From a virus (taxonomy: Duplodnaviria > Heunggongvirae > Uroviricota > Caudoviricetes): 16,410 bases of DNA. A program made the translations under genes and the position numbers. Position 1 is the first letter of the stretch, and each line of letters starts with the position of its first letter. Location: IMG/VR virus record IMGVR_UViG_2778261139_000010; one strand, 5' to 3'. This document shows, in pieces, positions 1,605 through 4,289 of the stretch. Under the pieces are notes generated by a model. It made no database searches and was not told the DNA's origin. It worked only from the letters and a program-made list of their open reading frames with translations.

Positions 1605-1793
1605 GTGTTAAGCACTGATCGGTTTATACGTGAAAAAGAATGCGAAAAGCTAACAGGCCTTAGCCGCTCATGCCGCTACCGCCTGGAAAAGGCCGGACAA
1701 TTCCCATCACGTCGTAAACTTGGCGGGCGTTCTGTTGGCTGGTCTTTATCTGAGGTTTTGGCCTGGAAGGATAGCTGCAAGGCAGTTCACTAA
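1605..1793 (+). CDS. alpA: AlpA-family phage transcriptional regulator (excisionase-like HTH)
   Basis: 62 aa, GTG start with SD AAAGGGGG 5-13 nt upstream. Sequence pattern typical of AlpA/Vis small HTH proteins; position directly after int. Confidence 0.8.
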   Translation: MLSTDRFIREKECEKLTGLSRSCRYRLEKAGQFPSRRKLGGRSVGWSLSEVLAWKDSCKAVH

Positions 1794-1973
1794 AAAGACT
1801 GGCGGCACACAGCCACCACCAATCCATTATTGACCGATACCGGGATCTCGGTATCGGGAATAAACGCCATAATACTGAGGTATAACCATGATGAAATATA
1901 CGCCCGTACAGGGGCGGGGATTCGTTCGCCCTGGTGAATCTGAAAAGCCATGCTATAGGGTATTTTCAGGCAT

Positions 1974-2007
1974 AAAAAAAGCGGTCCCGATATGGAACCG
2001 CCTTTCT
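1974..2007 (-). terminator. Intrinsic terminator for the minus-strand small-gene transcript
   Basis: Minus strand reads GCGGTTCC-atatc-GGGACCGC (one mismatch in stem) followed by TTTTTTT; lies about 65 nt downstream of the minus-strand ORF ending at 2070. Confidence 0.5.
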
Positions 2008-2069
2008 GAACAATTAACCCGCTGCGCCGTATGTGTCAACAATCATAAGCCCGAACATGATAACCGTGA

Positions 2070-2273
2070 TCAGGCTGGTGGGCAATTACCTTGCTTGTTG
2101 GGGCCGTATTGTGCTGCCATTTTCATCCGTTCAGAACGTGAATATTTTTTTAGAAACTCATCAAGGACAAAAGCGCATGGAGCGAATCTTTCTGATTCAT
2201 GCTCGAGCGCCATATTTTCGTGCTCTCTGTTCGTTTTTTGCGATGGTGTATTGGTTGATTCTTTATTGGTCAT
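2070..2273 (-). CDS. Hypothetical small protein downstream of RHH-1
   Basis: 67 aa; ATG ACC AA start exactly 57 nt after the RHH-1 stop, same arrangement as 2787..3014 after RHH-2. Weak SD. No recognisable family. Confidence 0.4.
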   Translation of the reverse strand: MTNKESTNTPSQKTNREHENMALEHESERFAPCAFVLDEFLKKYSRSERMKMAAQYGPNKQGNCPPA

Positions 2274-2281
2274 TGTGTGTA

Positions 2282-2364
2282 CCTGTAAAGCAATGCGCCG
2301 TAGTACCTCACGCCACGGCGCTGATAGTAATTATTCTGATTCTTTGGCCTTGCGGCGCTGGCGG
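2282..2364. repeat. Copy 1 of an 83-nt near-identical repeat spanning the RHH-1 3' end and the downstream intergenic hairpin
   Basis: 3 mismatches in 83 nt versus 3023..3105, while the rest of the two RHH genes has diverged. Confidence 0.85.
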
Positions 2365-2510
2365 CGTTTGATCTCGCCTTTTGCTGCCGTAACTAGAAAT
2401 CCGGCGGTACTTTCGCCAGGTTCTTTAAGTTGCTCAATATCGGTCATTACCTCATGCGGGATTCTGACCGTTGTCATTTGTGATTTTGCGTTCTTTGCAC
2501 CTGTTGCCAT
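2331..2510 (-). CDS. Ribbon-helix-helix-like DNA-binding protein (RHH-1), candidate repressor
   Basis: 59 aa MATGAKNAKSQMTTVRIPHEVMTDIEQLKEPGESTAGFLVTAAKGEIKRRQRRKAKESE. Strong SD AGGAG 8 nt upstream. Beta-strand (TVRIP), helix, G-E-S turn, helix pattern. Paralog of 3072..3251. Confidence 0.65.
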   Translation of the reverse strand: MATGAKNAKSQMTTVRIPHEVMTDIEQLKEPGESTAGFLVTAAKGEIKRRQRRKAKESE

Positions 2511-2530
2511 TTCTGGTTCTCCTGATAATC

Positions 2531-2623
2531 GGTGTATTTCAGTATACGCAAAAAAAAAGATAAAAAAAGTCTTGCGGTGTATTTCACCTGAATGTAGATT
2601 TAAAAATAAAGGTGAAATACACC
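2531..2623. promoter_or_regulatory. Module-1 operator cluster: GGTGTATTTCA (2531), GGTGTATTTCACC (2576) and its exact inverse GGTGAAATACACC (2611), bracketing a sigma70-like rightward promoter (TTGCGG 2572..2577, 17-bp spacer, TAGATT 2595..2600)
   Basis: Exact repeats and inverted repeats read from the sequence. Promoter assignment is by eye from hexamer match and spacing. Confidence 0.55.
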
Positions 2624-2786
2624 CAAAACAACAACGCCCCGCAGTGATGGGAACACATACGGGGCGTCTAACCAAACCATTAATTGAGGTAACGATTATG
2701 GCTATAAAAGAGCATAGCTTACTCTTTATACACACACAAACGCCCCGGAAACGGAATAATCCGTTTCATAGTTCGGTTTTGTGTAC

Positions 2787-3014
2787 TCATCCTGGCGGGC
2801 GATTCTTACGGGACTTTAGCCGCCGTGGGCAGCTTGCTAAAAATGCCTCCAACGCGAATAGTCCAGGTTTCATTTCTATCGGTATTAGTTGGATATTCAG
2901 AGGATTAGCCAGTTCGGCTTCAAGGCGAGCACAGGTTTCTAACTGCCTTTGCCGAATGATTTCATCTTCTTGCGTCTGCGTGTCTTGTATTGGTGATAGT
3001 GTGTTGTTGGTCAT
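2787..3014 (-). CDS. Hypothetical small protein downstream of RHH-2
   Basis: 75 aa; ATG ACC AA start 57 nt after the RHH-2 stop. Central region looks coiled-coil-like (EDEIIRQRQLETCARLEAELA). No recognisable family. Confidence 0.4.
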   Translation of the reverse strand: MTNNTLSPIQDTQTQEDEIIRQRQLETCARLEAELANPLNIQLIPIEMKPGLFALEAFLASCPRRLKSRKNRPPG

Positions 3015-3022
3015 GATACTGC

Positions 3023-3105
3023 CCTGTAAAGCAATGCGCCGTAGTACCTCACACCACGGCGCTGATAGTGATTATTCTGATTCTTTGGCCTTGCGACGCT
3101 GGCGG
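3023..3105. repeat. Copy 2 of the 83-nt near-identical repeat (RHH-2 3' end plus intergenic hairpin)
   Basis: See 2282..2364. Confidence 0.85.
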
Positions 3106-3251
3106 TATTCAACTTCCCGCTTTAATGCAGCTGTAACAAACTGCCCTGTACTTTCGCCGGGCATTTTTACCGCCTCAACATTGTTCATAACTTCATGTGG
3201 AACCCTTGCCGCAACTGTTTGTGATTTTGCGTTTACTGCTTTTGTCGCCAT
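3072..3251 (-). CDS. Ribbon-helix-helix-like DNA-binding protein (RHH-2), candidate repressor of the rightward early operon
   Basis: 59 aa MATKAVNAKSQTVAARVPHEVMNNVEAVKMPGESTGQFVTAALKREVEYRQRRKAKESE. Strong SD GAGGGGGG upstream. Below the 60-aa cutoff of the ORF track, found by reverse-complementing the repeat. Confidence 0.65.
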   Translation of the reverse strand: MATKAVNAKSQTVAARVPHEVMNNVEAVKMPGESTGQFVTAALKREVEYRQRRKAKESE

Positions 3252-3301
3252 GTTGAGCCCCCCTCATAAAAAACAAATGCAGTATGCAGGAAAAAAAATA
3301 A

Positions 3302-3354
3302 GTGTTCAACACTTGACGTGTTTAACACCTCGATTTAAATTGGTGTTCAACACC
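3302..3354. promoter_or_regulatory. Module-2 operator cluster: palindromes GTGTTCAACAC (3302), GTGTTTAACAC (3318), GGTGTTCAACACC (3342), overlapping a sigma70-like rightward promoter (TTGACG 3313..3318, 17-bp spacer, TAAATT 3336..3341)
   Basis: Three copies of a self-complementary 11-13 bp site positioned at -35, in the spacer and just after -10. Classical repressor/operator geometry. Confidence 0.6.
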
Positions 3355-3443
3355 TTATTTAGGCAAGGTGTAGAAACGACGAAACCCCGCACTGTAGGAG
3401 CAGTAACGGGGCTTCTAACCAACAACGTAAACGAGGAGCCGTT

Positions 3444-3641
3444 ATGGTTGCCGTAAATCATATACCACACCTTGTACACACACAAACTGCCTTTGTGTGG
3501 CGTTTTCTGGCCCTGAGTGCCGGAGAATCTCAAATCATCCACGTAACCGCCTGGACGGAACGCGAAGCGCGTAGCCGTTGCCCGTCCGGTTGTGTTGCTG
3601 TATTTGCCGCCCGTATTCGTCAGGAGGTGCGCCATGATTAA
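3444..3641 (+). CDS. Small protein resembling Icd-like (host cell-division inhibitor-like) proteins of P1/P4-type elements; first gene of the early operon
   Basis: 65 aa, SD GAGGA 6 nt upstream. FVWRFLAL...TEREAR...VFAAR pattern recalled from Icd-like annotations; family call is from memory. Confidence 0.45.
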   Translation: MVAVNHIPHLVHTQTAFVWRFLALSAGESQIIHVTAWTEREARSRCPSGCVAVFAARIRQEVRHD

Positions 3642-3846
3642 TCTGTCACTTACTGACCTTAACCGCATTCAGTTTCGTGAGAAATTCACAGGGCAGCTAC
3701 TGGTCAATGTGGATAAAGGTCGCGTGGTGTGTAATTACCACTTACCAGATGAAGCAATTGTCGCCACAAGGGAATCATTACAGGAAATCACAAAACGTGC
3801 CGGAATGATTAACACGAATATTCAGGGGATGCTTTATGCACAATAA
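3634..3846 (+). CDS. Hypothetical protein (early operon)
   Basis: 70 aa from ATG 3634, overlapping the stop of the upstream gene (translational coupling). No recognisable family. Confidence 0.5.
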   Translation: MINLSLTDLNRIQFREKFTGQLLVNVDKGRVVCNYHLPDEAIVATRESLQEITKRAGMINTNIQGMLYAQ

Positions 3847-4075
3847 AACCACACCGGACGCAGCCGCCGAAGCCATCAAAACGCTGATGCACGCGCTGAT
3901 TGATATTTCTGTTATCGCGGACAGGGCACATAAGCACGCCACCAGTGAAACAGAATATGCCGGGGCTTTCGTTCCTCATTCGCTGGCGGTTATGCAACTT
4001 AGTGCTGATATGGCGCTGAATGAGGCCAAAGCTATCCTGATTGCTGATTGTGAAAATGGGGGGGGTTATGCGTGA
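3836..4075 (+). CDS. Hypothetical protein (early operon)
   Basis: 79 aa; ATG overlaps the upstream stop; AGGGG SD. Confidence 0.55.
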   Translation: MHNKTTPDAAAEAIKTLMHALIDISVIADRAHKHATSETEYAGAFVPHSLAVMQLSADMALNEAKAILIADCENGGGYA

Positions 4076-4289
4076 TGATCGTTTTTATTCCCTGAAACAA
4101 GAATTTTCCGGCGTATCTGATGATGCGGCTGATGCGCTTTCGTCAATGCCAGAACTTATTAGAGCGGCTTTTTTCTTACTTTCCACGAAAGAATATAAAT
4201 CAACTGGAATAGACGTACTGAATATTGCTGCCGATTATGCTGATTTCGTGACAGAAGTTATTTTAAGAAAAACGACGGACGGGGATTAA
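4068..4289 (+). CDS. Hypothetical protein (early operon)
   Basis: About 73 aa from ATG 4068 (GGGGGG SD; ATGcgTGA overlap with upstream stop). The ORF track's start at 4041 is TTG; ATG 4056 is an alternative. Confidence 0.5.
   Translation: MRDDRFYSLKQEFSGVSDDAADALSSMPELIRAAFFLLSTKEYKSTGIDVLNIAADYADFVTEVILRKTTDGD

What the first reader, a model, noticed from the sequence alone, without database searches (positions are those of the whole stretch)
2070..3443. Two tandem RHH regulator modules that are homologous but carry different operator palindromes
Two minus-strand 59-aa paralogs (2331..2510 and 3072..3251) both have strong ribosome-binding sites and an RHH-like pattern. Each sits beside its own set of three sites: GGTGTATTTCA(CC) and its inverse in module 1, and the self-complementary GTGTT(C/T)AACAC in module 2. 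In both modules the sites bracket a sigma70-like rightward promoter with the same geometry. The flanking DNA is recognisably homologous, but the operator sequence and the N-terminal beta-strand region of the protein differ together, which looks like an immunity-specificity swap. Only module 2 heads an intact rightward operon; in module 1 only about 14 codons of the rightward gene survive. This may be a captured second immunity cassette, a decoy operator set, or a sensor for a second helper phage. Each RHH gene is also followed 57 nt later by a small ORF starting ATGACCAA, so a toxin-antitoxin-like reading cannot be excluded.
Basis: partly seen in the sequence, partly recalled or inferred. Interest (0 to 1): 0.8.

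Follow-up and report, generated by a model that had tools for sequence, protein, structure and literature searches.

The report
Two swappable repressor cassettes in satellite
A phage-parasitising island of E. coli carries, one behind the other, two small repressor genes of an uncharacterised family, each with its own matching set of DNA binding sites around a promoter, which points to the missing "off switch" of such islands in Gram-negative bacteria.

Summary
The window is a capsid-forming phage-inducible chromosomal island (cf-PICI, EcCIEDL933-like). The two 59-aa minus-strand proteins belong to the uncharacterised YlcI/YnfO family. The structure model of the module-2 protein has a ribbon-helix-helix (RHH) fold.

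Each gene faces a rightward sigma70-type promoter flanked by three 11-13-bp sites. The sites share a GTG-N5-CAC frame and differ only in the central 5 bp.

In 27 modules from about 15 genera, plus further E. coli islands, the geometry is constant. The site sequence follows residues 11-15 of the predicted beta-strand. It does not follow the downstream Icd-like gene. This supports a repressor/operator specificity swap.

Module 1 is not a wreck. The same protein and sites head an intact operon in another island. The tandem layout occurs in 110 of 5426 complete E. coli genomes, with both slots holding interchangeable cassettes. The toxin-antitoxin reading is disfavoured.

- A conserved two-hairpin leader RNA precedes the Icd-like gene.
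- One plus-strand reading frame is free of stop codons from just after alpA, through both modules, to the icd start. This holds across genera.

Binding, repression and the purpose of the tandem are inferred, not shown.

The parts
1605..1793 (+). alpA-like helix-turn-helix gene (62 aa). AlpA is the known activator of Gram-negative PICIs. It lies upstream of the two modules.
   Evidence: ORF. Annotated as a helix-turn-helix regulator in near-identical islands. AlpA role from PMC6092414.
1972..2001 (-). Terminator-like hairpin plus T-run on the minus strand. It ends the leftward transcript of module 1.
   Evidence: Sequence. Picked up only as a weak terminator-shaped Rfam match.
1879..3456 (+). 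Plus-strand reading frame with no stop codon for 525 codons (first ATG at 1888, with GAGG 7 nt upstream). It is antisense to all four leftward genes, crosses both promoter/operator regions and both leaders, and ends 10 nt after the icd ATG.
   Evidence: Conserved across genera.
2070..2273 (-). Small ORF orfX1 (67 aa, phrog_21027, function unknown), downstream of ylcI-1.
   Evidence: Core motif EHESERFAPCAF-L--FLK-Y is shared with the O157:H7 island.
2295..2321 (-). Conserved hairpin GCGCCGTGGCGTGAGGTACTACGGCGC between ylcI-1 and orfX1. It forms the left boundary of the swappable cassette.
   Evidence: Also present after the non-YlcI regulators in L038-L040.
2331..2510 (-). ylcI-1: 59-aa YlcI/YnfO-family RHH protein with specificity residues 11-15 QMTTV.
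   Evidence: NF041551 E 3.8e-17, 62.1 bits against a cut-off of 30. 57/59 identical to the sole regulator of island L041.
2532..2542 (+). Module 1 site O1 (GTGTATTTCAG). It abuts AGTATA at 2541-2546, which reads TATACT on the minus strand and is the putative -10 of the ylcI-1 promoter.
   Evidence: The CAGTATAC motif is conserved next to O1 in most loci. The promoter assignment is inferred.
2572..2600 (+). Rightward promoter P_R1: TTGCGG-17-TAGATT.
   Evidence: Same position as the TTGAC-17/18-TAnnnT promoter in 26 other modules.
2577..2587 (+). Module 1 site O2 (GTGTATTTCAC), between the -35 and -10 of P_R1.
2612..2622 (-). Module 1 site O3 (GTGTATTTCAC, inverted), downstream of the -10 of P_R1.
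   Evidence: Same inverted position in L041.
2614..2701 (+). Leader RNA 1: hairpin 1 (2635-2666), TCTAACCA linker, hairpin 2 holding the Shine-Dalgarno sequence in its loop, then the ATG at 2698.
   Evidence: Covariance model R1 gives 77 bits, E 5e-18. 12 of 17 pairs show compensatory changes. No Rfam family matches.
2698..2742 (+). Truncated 5' end of an icd-like gene (about 15 codons of homology). Its frame continues open to 3456.
   Evidence: Alignment of the two modules..
2748..2767 (-). Hairpin GAAACGG-ATTATT-CCGTTTC after orfX2, at the junction between the two modules.
   Evidence: The junction is 98-100% identical in other tandem islands.
2787..3014 (-). Small ORF orfX2 (75 aa, no family match), downstream of ylcI-2.
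3036..3062 (-). Second copy of the conserved hairpin, between ylcI-2 and orfX2.
   Evidence: Lies in the most conserved stretch between the modules.
3072..3251 (-). ylcI-2: 59-aa YlcI/YnfO-family RHH protein with specificity residues 11-15 QTVAA.
3302..3312 (+). Module 2 site O1 (GTGTTCAACAC). It contains TTGAAC on the minus strand, the putative -35 of the ylcI-2 promoter (-10 CATACT at 3281-3286).
   Evidence: The promoter assignment is inferred from the sequence.
3313..3341 (+). Rightward promoter P_R2: TTGACG-17-TAAATT.
3318..3328 (+). Module 2 site O2 (GTGTTTAACAC), between the -35 and -10 of P_R2.
3343..3353 (+). Module 2 site O3 (GTGTTCAACAC), just downstream of the -10 of P_R2.
3362..3447 (+). 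Leader RNA 2: hairpin 1 (about 3382-3414), TCTAACCA linker, a hairpin around the Shine-Dalgarno sequence, then the ATG at 3444.
   Evidence: Covariance model R1 gives 68 bits, E 1e-15..
3444..3641 (+). Icd-like gene, first gene of the rightward operon that continues to RepA helicase, SSB, PerC and the capsid/packaging genes.
   Evidence: NF033153 E 5.8e-18. Operon layout.

Best explanation
The window is an EcCIEDL933-like capsid-forming PICI. Between alpA and the replication/packaging operon it carries two complete, hetero-specific regulatory cassettes in series.

Each cassette has these parts:
- a leftward gene for a small ribbon-helix-helix protein of the YlcI/YnfO family;
- a divergent rightward sigma70 promoter;
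- three copies of an 11-13-bp site, GTG-N5-CAC, whose central 5 bp are specific to the cassette;
- a structured leader RNA followed by an Icd-like start codon.

Proposed mechanism (inferred):
1. The protein binds its own sites as a dimer. The variable beta-strand residues 11-15 read the central bases.
2. The site between the -35 and -10 hexamers, and the site just after the -10, shut off the rightward promoter.
3. The site next to the regulator's own promoter gives autoregulation.
4. YlcI-2 (QTVAA; GTGTTCAACAC) therefore holds the replication/packaging operon silent.
5. YlcI-1 (QMTTV; GTGTATTTCAC) silences a second upstream promoter, P_R1. That promoter points into the same operon, antisense through orfX2 and ylcI-2.
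6. The icd' frame of module 1 stays open up to the real icd start. P_R1 transcripts and read-through from the AlpA-activated alpA promoter can therefore be translated all the way, and would not be cut short by Rho.
7. The operon is then silent only while both repressors are present. Firing of the upstream promoters would also interfere with ylcI-2 expression.

What is shown here: family membership, the fold, the sites and their statistics, conserved geometry, protein/site co-variation, cassette swapping, recurrence of the tandem layout, and the stop-free frame.

What is inferred: DNA binding, repression, autoregulation, read-through and its translation, and whatever a helper phage does to the repressors.

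The confidence of 0.7 applies to the core claim: RHH repressors, each specific for its own operator set at a divergent promoter, in two exchangeable cassettes. For the series-promoter and translated read-through part I would give about 0.35.
For: - Identity of the island: int, alpA, RepA, SSB, PerC, capsid, protease, portal and terminase in a 96% identical annotated island inserted in tqsA. cf-PICI description in 10.1101/2022.09.08.507074.
- Family: NF041551 at 62.1 and 59.7 bits against a cut-off of 30.
- Sites more frequent than chance.
- Constant geometry in 27 modules: O1 at -40, O2 at +5, O3 at +27 to +30.
- Co-variation of residues 11-15 with the site, not reached in any of 2000 permutations. 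About a dozen distinct pairs, including QSVTA with GTGTAAGACAC and KKLEA with GTGGCTGACAC inside E. coli tandem islands.
- Sites 32-33/33 identical while neighbouring DNA is 53-59% identical across genera.
- The same Icd protein follows different regulator/site sets.
- Unrelated Arc-like RHH genes, with their own palindromes, occupy the same slot.
- The module-1 type heads an intact icd-primase operon in L041.
- The tandem junction is in 110 of 5426 genomes, at three different insertion sites.
- The stop-free frame is open in 23 of 28 intergenic regions, against 1.68 expected. It often starts within 90 nt of the alpA stop.
- alpA overexpression alone induces EcCIEDL933.
Against: - No experiment exists. 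No paper in the searched library assigns a function to YlcI/YnfO.
- The regulator's N-terminus and the sites lie within 250 bp of each other, so part of the co-variation is simple linkage within one recombining cassette. The loci are also related by descent, so the permutation result overstates independence.
- Both promoters are consensus matches only.
- Published work names AlpA, an activator, as the switch of Gram-negative PICIs, and found no repressor (PMC6092414).
- The tandem layout was seen only in E. coli; 28 loci from other genera have one module. It could be a tolerated recombination product.
- In two tandem islands the long frame is broken (L038 by one stop, L046 by a frameshift), so it is not indispensable.
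Confidence: 0.7

Rival explanations
1. Module 1 is a leftover of recombination between two islands with different regulator types, and does nothing useful for this island. It persists only because losing ylcI-1 while P_R1 is still intact would let P_R1 fire into the replication operon and harm the host.
For: - The icd copy of module 1 is cut after about 15 codons.
- The junction is nearly identical (98-100%) in many genomes, as expected for a single event that later spread.
- The tandem layout was found only in E. coli.
- Uncontrolled PICI replication lowers host viability (PMC6092414).
Against: - The layout is found at three different chromosomal insertion sites.
- It occurs with at least three regulator types in slot 1 and four in slot 2, so cassettes kept being exchanged within the tandem frame.
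- The module-1 protein is identical in islands that are only 88-96% identical overall.
- All three sites, the promoter and the leader are intact.
- The reading frame across the junction is open in most copies.
Confidence: 0.25
2. Module 1 works in trans as immunity against rival satellites. YlcI-1 silences incoming or co-resident PICIs whose only promoter carries GTGTATTTCAC sites, while YlcI-2 runs the island's own switch.
For: - Islands with exactly this protein and these sites as their sole module exist in E. coli, at another insertion site and with a primase instead of RepA.
- E. coli genomes often hold several related islands, up to 6 matching places per genome.
Against: - No co-occurrence or exclusion statistics were computed.
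- This does not explain why module 1 keeps its own promoter, leader and start codon pointing into the operon.
- It does not explain why the frame across the junction stays open.
Confidence: 0.15
3. The pairs ylcI-orfX are toxin-antitoxin-like addiction modules: an RHH antitoxin that autoregulates, with a small toxin downstream. The repeated sites serve only autoregulation.
For: - RHH antitoxins are among the structural matches: CopA_SO, HicB, TacA, MazE9.
- A small ORF follows each regulator on the same strand.
Against: - In 26 loci from other genera the gene is followed by a terminator-like hairpin, or by unrelated short ORFs, not by any conserved partner.
- orfX1 also sits behind unrelated Arc-like regulators, so it is not tied to YlcI.
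- The genes are 57 nt apart with a strong hairpin between them.
- No toxin family matches in Pfam, NCBIfam or PHROGs.
- Two of the three sites bracket the -10 of the rightward promoter, not the regulator's own promoter.
Confidence: 0.05
4. The real gene is the long plus-strand ORF, an N-terminally extended Icd-like protein. On this view the minus-strand 59-aa ORFs are shadows of it.
For: - The plus frame is open for 525 codons here and is conserved as open elsewhere.
- PGAP calls part of it an Icd-like pseudogene in O157:H7.
- The depositors of Pasteurella 'phage' Pmp7 annotated the 224-aa long form as a repressor.
- phrog_29966 is a 188-position profile that matches Icd only at its C-terminal end.
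Against: - The translation is Cys-rich, looks like junk, and crosses promoters and poly-A runs.
- The minus-strand proteins have strong ribosome-binding sites and a confident fold.
- They belong to a curated family that also occurs in lambda, where there is no icd.
- They show invariant structural positions next to variable DNA-reading positions.
- Both readings can hold at once: the frame may be kept open for translation, not for its product.
Confidence: 0.05

Closest known systems
Phage P22 immI region: Mnt and Arc ribbon-helix-helix repressors controlling P_ant
   Same: - Small RHH repressors are transcribed divergently from the promoter they control.
- Short operators overlap the -35/-10 region.
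- They autoregulate.
- The operon they control starts with small regulatory genes.
   Different: - There is no sequence-level relationship.
- Here there are three copies of an 11-13-bp site per promoter.
- The element is a satellite, not a phage.
- The controlled operon carries replication and capsid genes.
- Two hetero-specific cassettes stand in series.

The P22 details are from general knowledge and were not tested here.
Stl / Rpr master repressors of SaPIs and other Gram-positive PICIs
   Same: - Same position in the island: between int and the replication operon, and divergent from that operon.
- Same presumed job: keeping the island silent until a helper phage arrives (PMC6092414).
- Allelic diversity would match different helpers.
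   Different: - Stl/Rpr are larger helix-turn-helix proteins with no homology to YlcI.
- For Gram-negative PICIs the literature says a global repressor is 'unclear' and names AlpA as activator.
- Lifting of YlcI repression by a phage protein is pure conjecture.
Phage P1/P7 immI: c4 RNA, icd, ant
   Same: - The operon opens with a structured leader RNA followed by an Icd-like gene (NF033153).
- In P1, translation of icd is what allows transcription to continue (general knowledge). This resembles the translation-dependent read-through proposed here.
   Different: - There is no match to Rfam C4 or isrK, even at E up to 10.
- The leader here is two hairpins with the ribosome-binding site in a loop.
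- Control is by a divergent protein repressor rather than an antisense RNA.
YlcI / YnfO (DUF3950) of lambda and the DLP12 and Qin prophages
   Same: - Same NCBIfam family.
- The lambda protein (64 aa, MSTKNRTRRTTTRNIRFPNQMIEQI...) is 41% identical to the Klebsiella island variant.
- The lambda protein matches Pfam DUF3950.
   Different: - In lambda the gene lies 200-360 nt from the right cos end, next to bor and gp78/79. There is no icd, no divergent promoter set and no leader.
- The two window proteins do not reach Pfam DUF3950.
- The function of the lambda gene is unknown.
Plasmid copy-control and partition RHH repressors (CopG, omega)
   Same: - Binding to several short repeats around promoters, in direct or inverted orientation, as with the omega heptads.
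   Different: - Sequence identity is only 13-17%.
- The repeats are of a different length and arrangement.
- The biological setting is different.

Membership tests
YlcI/YnfO family (NCBIfam NF041551) | Profile score above the curated cut-off of 30 bits | tested here: met
   62.1 bits for 2331-2510 and 59.7 bits for 3072-3251. Both align to profile positions 1-42 of 42.
YlcI/YnfO family (NCBIfam NF041551) | Match to Pfam DUF3950 (PF13132), the older model of the same group | tested here: not met
   No PF13132 hit for either window protein at E up to 1. The lambda, Pasteurella and Klebsiella relatives do match, at 72.8, 29.8 and 30 bits. The window proteins are therefore a divergent branch, with GESTGQF in place of GNFSAWV.
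Ribbon-helix-helix (MetJ/Arc/CopG) DNA-binding fold | N-terminal strand followed by two helices in about 45-50 residues | tested here: met
   The AlphaFold model has mean pLDDT 86.9, extended residues 1-18, and helices 19-28 and 35-58. A strand cannot be assigned in a monomer.
Ribbon-helix-helix (MetJ/Arc/CopG) DNA-binding fold | Structural similarity to solved RHH proteins | tested here: met
   [not shown]
Ribbon-helix-helix (MetJ/Arc/CopG) DNA-binding fold | Sequence-profile match to a curated RHH family | tested here: not met
   No Pfam RHH model matched. A profile search of PDB sequences found nothing related.
Ribbon-helix-helix (MetJ/Arc/CopG) DNA-binding fold | Dimer with a two-stranded antiparallel sheet that reads bases in the major groove of repeated sites | not testable with these tools
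   No multimer or DNA-complex prediction is available. Indirect support: the site centre co-varies with strand residues 11-15.
Type II toxin-antitoxin module with RHH antitoxin | A conserved partner toxin gene adjacent to the antitoxin | tested here: not met
   No conserved downstream ORF in 26 loci from other genera. orfX1 also follows unrelated regulators.
Type II toxin-antitoxin module with RHH antitoxin | Partner belongs to a known toxin family | tested here: not met
   orfX1 matches only phrog_21027 (unknown function). orfX2 has no match in Pfam, NCBIfam or PHROGs.
PICI master repressor (functional class: Stl/Rpr) | Gene lies between int and the replication module, divergent from the operon it controls | tested here: met
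   Layout is int, alpA, [orfX-ylcI leftward], then rightward icd ... repA, ssb, perC, capsid genes.
PICI master repressor (functional class: Stl/Rpr) | Represses the island operon and is inactivated by a helper-phage protein | not testable with these tools
   Needs reporter assays and helper infection. The literature reports only AlpA-dependent activation.
P1-type immI (C4 antisense RNA upstream of icd) | Leader matches Rfam C4 (RF01695) or isrK | tested here: not met
   No hit at gathering threshold in the whole window. No hit at E up to 10 in 1950-3700.
Capsid-forming PICI (EcCIEDL933 type) | int, alpA and a replication module, plus its own capsid, protease, portal, connectors and terminase, in about 15 kb | tested here: met
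   Annotation of the 96% identical island. ORF layout of the window. Definition in 10.1101/2022.09.08.507074.

The most novel reading that the evidence does not exclude
YlcI/YnfO-type RHH proteins, and the Arc-like proteins that replace them in the same slot (including in the prototype EcCIEDL933), are the missing master repressors of Gram-negative PICIs and cf-PICIs.

On this reading the switch works by translation-coupled read-through. A stop-free frame begins at the end of alpA and runs antisense through the repressor genes, operators and leader into icd. AlpA-driven transcripts are translated along it, which protects them from Rho. They then override and silence the repressors. Two hetero-specific cassettes in series give the island two independent locks or sensors.
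Probability: 0.25. Interest if true: 0.85.

Novelty: new variant of a known kind. Interest (0 to 1): 0.62.

Why it matters
Since 2018 the PICI field has held that Gram-positive islands use a master repressor, while for Gram-negative islands a repressor is 'unclear' and only the activator AlpA is known (PMC6092414). A 2025 preprint on cf-PICIs still calls the variable gene after alpA 'of unknown function'.

This analysis does four things:
- It assigns a concrete, testable role to that region and to the uncharacterised YlcI/YnfO family.
- It gives about a dozen protein/operator pairs that could be used directly for specificity-swap experiments or as orthogonal repressor parts.
- It shows that islands combine such cassettes in series.
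- It finds that in O157:H7, which carries the prototype island, the regulator gene is not even annotated.

The stop-free frame across an antisense repressor cassette would be an unusual way to couple an activator to a repressor switch, if it is selected for translation.

Tried and rejected
- Rfam search of the whole window, and a sensitive search of 1950-3700. No family matched, and in particular neither C4 nor isrK.
- Profile search of PDB sequences. Only chance hits.
- tblastn of YlcI-2 against the phage collection at E up to 1e-3. Nothing. The more lambda-like Klebsiella variant had to be used instead.
- Toxin-antitoxin reading. Rejected because the downstream ORF is not a conserved partner.
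- 'The sites belong to Icd or to AlpA.' Rejected because the same Icd and the same AlpA occur with different site sets.
- 'Module 1 geometry is degenerate.' The inverted, shifted O3 is reproduced exactly in the single-module island L041, and a similar inversion occurs in the QSVTA class.
- A 1-mismatch module-2-type site at the alpA start codon (1605-1615). It is most likely coincidence, because the same alpA sequence occurs with unrelated regulators.
Full report
**What the window is**

The 16.4-kb window is a capsid-forming phage-inducible chromosomal island (cf-PICI) of the EcCIEDL933 type. A 96% identical island in E. coli strain 10 is inserted in tqsA. It is annotated, in order, as: integrase, a helix-turn-helix (alpA-like) regulator, hypothetical, YlcI/YnfO, hypothetical, YlcI/YnfO, Icd-like, several small genes, RepA helicase, SSB, PerC, major capsid, protease, portal, connectors, HNH, and small and large terminase. 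This matches the published description of cf-PICIs (10.1101/2022.09.08.507074). The finding lies in the stretch between alpA (1605-1793) and the rightward replication/packaging operon, which starts with the Icd-like gene (3444-3641; NF033153, E 5.8e-18).

**Check of the observation**

- The two minus-strand ORFs, 2331-2510 and 3072-3251, each give 59 aa. They are 61% identical.
- The module-1 sites lie at 2532-2542, 2577-2587 and 2612-2622 (inverted). That is 3 matches against 0.28 expected.
- The module-2 sites lie at 3302-3312, 3318-3328 and 3343-3353. That is 7 strand-matches against 0.51 expected; no shuffle out of 200 reached this.
- The promoters are TTGCGG-17-TAGATT (2572-2600) and TTGACG-17-TAAATT (3313-3341).
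- The small ORFs 2070-2273 and 2787-3014 start ATGACCAA, 57 nt after each regulator.

Three details need correcting.
1. The two site types share the frame GTG-N5-CAC and differ only in the five central bases.
2. Only the site between -35 and -10 occupies the same position in both modules. O1 and O3 sit differently, and O3 of module 1 is inverted.
3. The remnant of icd in module 1 has about 15 homologous codons. Its frame nevertheless runs on, without a stop, for 252 codons to 3456.

**What the proteins are**

- Both match NCBIfam NF041551 'YlcI/YnfO family protein' at about twice the curated cut-off.
- Both match PHROG 949, of unknown function.
- Neither matches any Pfam model, including DUF3950.
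- I found no paper that assigns a function to this family.
- The family is small. It has 84 representatives at 50% identity out of 1.84 billion proteins, and the named homologues are all from Enterobacterales.
- An AlphaFold model built on 41 homologues is confident (pLDDT 87). It shows an extended N-terminus (residues 1-18) and two helices, 19-28 and 35-58.
- Foldseek found nothing.

The RHH reading is therefore supported at the level of fold, but not of sequence profile.

**Comparative evidence for repressor/operator pairs**

A scan of one genome per species returned 35 loci with a homologue, from Edwardsiella, Pectobacterium, Kosakonia, Yokenella, Serratia, Xenorhabdus, Proteus, Klebsiella and others. 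Upstream of the gene the same architecture recurs:
- a site next to the regulator's start, followed by a conserved CAGTATAC. On the regulator's strand this reads TATACT, a plausible -10 for its own promoter;
- a TTGAC-type -35 hexamer whose last base begins the second site;
- a TAnnnT -10 hexamer;
- a third site;
- a leader, then ATGGCT of an Icd-like gene.

Measured from the first base of the -35 hexamer, the sites lie at -40, +5 and +27 to +30 in nearly all loci.

The site sequence changes from locus to locus together with residues 11-15, which sit just before the invariant R16-V-P-H:

| Residues 11-15 | Site |
|---|---|
| QT[VLI]AA | GTGTTCAACAC |
| QSLKS | GTGGGCCACAC |
| [KR]KLEA | GTGGCTGACAC |
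| QK[LV]Q[AT] | GTGGAGTCCAC |
| KRFDV | GTGTC[CG]GACAC |
| QKMSA | TGGGTGCCAG |
| QMTTV | GTGTATTTCAC |
| QSVTA | GTGTAAGACAC |

- Identical pentapeptides go with 10.55 of 11 identical site positions. Unrelated pentapeptides go with 6-7, which is the shared GTG/CAC frame. No permutation out of 2000 reached the observed correlation.
- The loci are related and the two features are physically close, so this number overstates independence. Two further observations answer that concern.
- First, within the KKLEA class, E. coli, Pectobacterium and Xenorhabdus copies keep 32-33 of 33 site positions. The remaining intergenic columns are 53-59% identical and the proteins 68-74% identical.
- Second, the sites do not follow the gene on their other side. 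The identical Icd protein (WP_000226782.1) follows a QTVAA regulator in the window and an unrelated Arc-like regulator in O157:H7. WP_024201884.1 follows both KKLEA and QSVTA regulators.

The only cassette-specific protein segment is therefore the regulator's N-terminal part.

**The slot is a cassette**

In other E. coli islands the module-1 position holds 57-59-aa proteins that are not YlcI. Examples are MSTPLEKRSPPYQMRLPE...SLATWIKRVLRKEL and VSTHKNERRGNPPFQFRLDPDL...SLAAWIKRIIRKEL. They have the sequence pattern of Arc-type RHH proteins. One gives a sub-threshold Pfam Arc hit (E 0.038), and the other matches no Pfam model. Each has its own palindromes, such as ATGGTAATTACCAT or GTGTATATACAC.

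The boundaries of the exchanged segment are conserved:
- on the left, a hairpin GCGCCGTGG.GTGAGGTACTACGGCGC just after the regulator's stop codon (2295-2321 and 3036-3062). This lies in the most conserved stretch between the two modules;
- on the right, the leader hairpin and the TCTAACCA linker.

This is the pattern expected of immunity-type cassettes that are exchanged by recombination at conserved flanks.

**Module 1 is a complete, working-type module**

An island at tRNA-Pro in strain M11957 (L041) carries a protein 57/59 identical to YlcI-1. It has the same three sites, including the inverted third site at the same distance. There the module is the only one, and it heads an intact Icd-like to primase operon. 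The unusual geometry of module 1 is therefore a property of the QMTTV class, not decay.

**How common the tandem is**

- The junction piece (leader 1, truncated icd, orfX2; 2625-3015) is found at 80% coverage or more in 110 of 5426 complete E. coli genomes.
- It occurs in islands inserted at tqsA, at roxA/pepT and at tRNA-Pro/yejM.
- A covariance model of the leader finds two leaders in each tandem E. coli locus and exactly one in each of 28 loci from other genera.
- Within the tandem frame both slots vary. Slot 1 holds QMTTV or either Arc-like type. Slot 2 holds QTVAA, KKLEA, QSVTA or a 106-aa variant.
- The module-1 protein is identical (WP_000190458.1) in islands that are 88-96% identical overall.

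**The toxin-antitoxin alternative**

- In other genera the gene is followed by a terminator-like hairpin or by unrelated short ORFs, never by a conserved partner.
- orfX1 also follows the Arc-like regulators.
- The two genes are separated by a strong hairpin.
- Neither orfX matches a toxin family.

I consider this reading unlikely.

1. *The leader.* The roughly 85 nt before each Icd-like start codon form a conserved leader with these parts:
   - a GC-rich hairpin with an inner AGUG/CACU stem;
   - the linker TCTAACCA;
   - a second hairpin that presents the Shine-Dalgarno sequence in its loop.

   In an alignment of 26 distinct leaders, 12 of 17 predicted pairs show compensatory changes. No Rfam family matches. 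Its role is unknown.

2. *The stop-free frame.* One plus-strand frame has no stop codon from 1879 to 3456, which is 525 codons.
   - About 262 of these codons lie outside the minus-strand genes. The first ATG (1888) has GAGG 7 nt upstream and lies 95 nt after the alpA stop.
   - The frame ends 10 nt after the icd ATG.
   - The same holds elsewhere: 498-607 codons in other tandem islands, and 314 aa in frame with Icd in O157:H7.
   - In Kosakonia it is 413 aa, starting about 10 nt after alpA and ending at the icd stop. In a Pasteurella PICI it is 224 aa, and there the depositors annotated the long ORF rather than the regulator.
   - Take the frame anchored on the regulator's start codon and the 186-nt promoter/operator/leader region. 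That frame has no stop in 23 of 28 distinct loci. In total it has 16 stops, against 171 and 134 in the other two frames.
   - Dinucleotide shuffles predict 1.68 loci with any stop-free frame.
   - Where alpA is adjacent, the frame opens within about 90 nt of its stop codon.
   - The translated sequence looks like junk. If the frame is selected, it is for being translated, not for its product.

**Proposed mechanism**

Shown here: two complete RHH-regulator/operator/promoter/leader cassettes in series, each with a cassette-specific site. Inferred: the mechanism below.
- Each RHH dimer binds its own sites.
- The sites flanking the -10 hexamer repress P_R.
- The site at the regulator's own promoter gives autoregulation.
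- YlcI-2 keeps the icd-repA-capsid operon off.
- YlcI-1 keeps P_R1 off. P_R1 transcripts would run antisense through orfX2 and ylcI-2 and on into the same operon.
- These transcripts would be translated from the icd' start codon along the open frame, and so be shielded from Rho-dependent termination.
- The AlpA-activated alpA transcript could do the same from 1888.

This would reconcile the published finding that AlpA alone induces these islands with the presence of repressor cassettes. Read-through from upstream would override the repressors and, by convergent transcription, lower their expression.

With two cassettes the operon is silent only when both repressors are present. Loss of either could start expression, which would allow two different helper signals. 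I cannot tell this apart from two other readings: a tolerated recombination product held in place because P_R1 must stay repressed, or trans-immunity against rival islands of the L041 type.

**Comparison with known systems**

- In function, the closest analogues are the Mnt/Arc-P_ant arrangement of P22 immI and the Stl/Rpr master repressors of Gram-positive PICIs.
- The Icd-led operon with a structured leader recalls P1 immI, but without its C4 RNA.
- In membership, the proteins are YlcI/YnfO-family proteins (criterion met) with an RHH fold (met structurally, not by sequence profile). They are not Stl/Rpr homologues and not a toxin-antitoxin pair.
- Lambda and many Stx phages carry a YlcI/YnfO (DUF3950) gene a few hundred bases from the right cos end. 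Its function is unknown. Lambda is a known PICI helper, so the relationship deserves a test.

**Novelty and verdict**

- RHH repressors with co-varying operators are a familiar kind of system.
- Three things are new here: the assignment of this role to an uncharacterised family, in the very region of Gram-negative PICIs for which the literature reports no repressor and 'unknown function'; the recurrent series arrangement of two exchangeable cassettes; and the stop-free frame laid across them.
- All functional statements remain computational inferences.
- I rate it a new variant of a known kind, interest 0.62.

Noticed in passing
window 1879-3456 (+); also L006 3604-4845 (-), L039 2825-3769, L040 2340-4148, L041 2486-3580, L043 2583-3257 (-): One reading frame on the icd strand has no stop codons. 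It runs from just after alpA, antisense through orfX and the regulator genes, across promoters, operators and leader, to or into icd. It is open in 23 of 28 intergenic regions against 1.68 expected from shuffles. The translated sequence looks like junk. One possibility is a translated read-through path that protects AlpA-driven transcripts from Rho.
   Followed up: partly
window 2614-2701 and 3362-3447 (+): Conserved leader of about 85 nt before every Icd-like gene: a GC-rich hairpin with an inner AGUG/CACU stem, the linker TCTAACCA, and a second hairpin with the Shine-Dalgarno sequence in its loop. 12 of 17 pairs show compensatory changes. No Rfam family matches, and its function is unknown.
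   Followed up: partly
window 2295-2321 and 3036-3062 (-): A nearly identical 27-nt hairpin, GCGCCGTGG.GTGAGGTACTACGGCGC, follows the stop codon of each regulator. It is kept even where the regulator is an unrelated Arc-like protein. It may be an attenuator between the regulator and orfX, and it marks the left recombination boundary of the cassette.
   Followed up: partly
L039 (E. coli O157:H7 EC4115, NC_011353.1) 3268-3441 (-): In the EcCIEDL933-type island of O157:H7 the 57-aa Arc-like regulator in this slot is not annotated at all. PGAP instead calls part of the plus-strand open frame (2825-3418) an 'Icd-like pseudogene'.
   Followed up: partly
L042 (lambdoid phage O276, NC_049951.1) 200-394; 153 phage records: Lambda, lambda hybrids and many Stx-converting phages encode a YlcI/YnfO (DUF3950) protein 200-360 nt from the right cos end. 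Lambda is a known helper of E. coli PICIs, so a link between the phage protein and the island's regulators (for example mixed dimers) is conceivable. This is untested.
   Followed up: no
L002 (Edwardsiella hoshinae NBRC 105699) 4001-4171: A protein identical to YlcI-2 over residues 1-57, with the same GTGTTCAACAC / GTGTTTAACAC sites, is present in a different genus. This fits the reported cross-genus spread of cf-PICIs. Its downstream flank is unrelated and has no orfX.
   Followed up: partly
window 1605-1615: A one-mismatch copy of the module-2 site (GTGTTAAGCAC on the plus strand) coincides with the GTG start codon of alpA. It is probably coincidence, because the same alpA sequence occurs in islands with unrelated regulators.
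   Followed up: partly
L015 and L025 (Xenorhabdus) upstream of the ylcI homologue: Two Xenorhabdus copies have deletions that remove part of the promoter/site array. L015 has lost the -10 hexamer and one site copy, and L025 keeps a single site. The rightward promoter is lost, so these look like decaying modules.
   Followed up: no
window 2550-2558; L046 IG1: The poly-A run between O1 and the -35 of P_R1 is one base longer in strain HY220605, which breaks the long open frame there. It is a possible slippage-prone tract.
   Followed up: no
window 2070-2273 and 2787-3014 (-); L039 3037-3225 (-): The small ORFs after the regulators form a family of their own. The core motif is ERFAPCAF-L--FLK-Y in orfX1 and the O157:H7 copy, and GLFALEAFL in orfX2. 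They are found only in the E. coli islands, and their function is unknown.
   Followed up: partly
L040 3446-3751 (-): One slot-2 regulator is a 106-aa YlcI variant. A segment of about 45 aa is inserted before the conserved C-terminal RRKAKESE tail.
   Followed up: no
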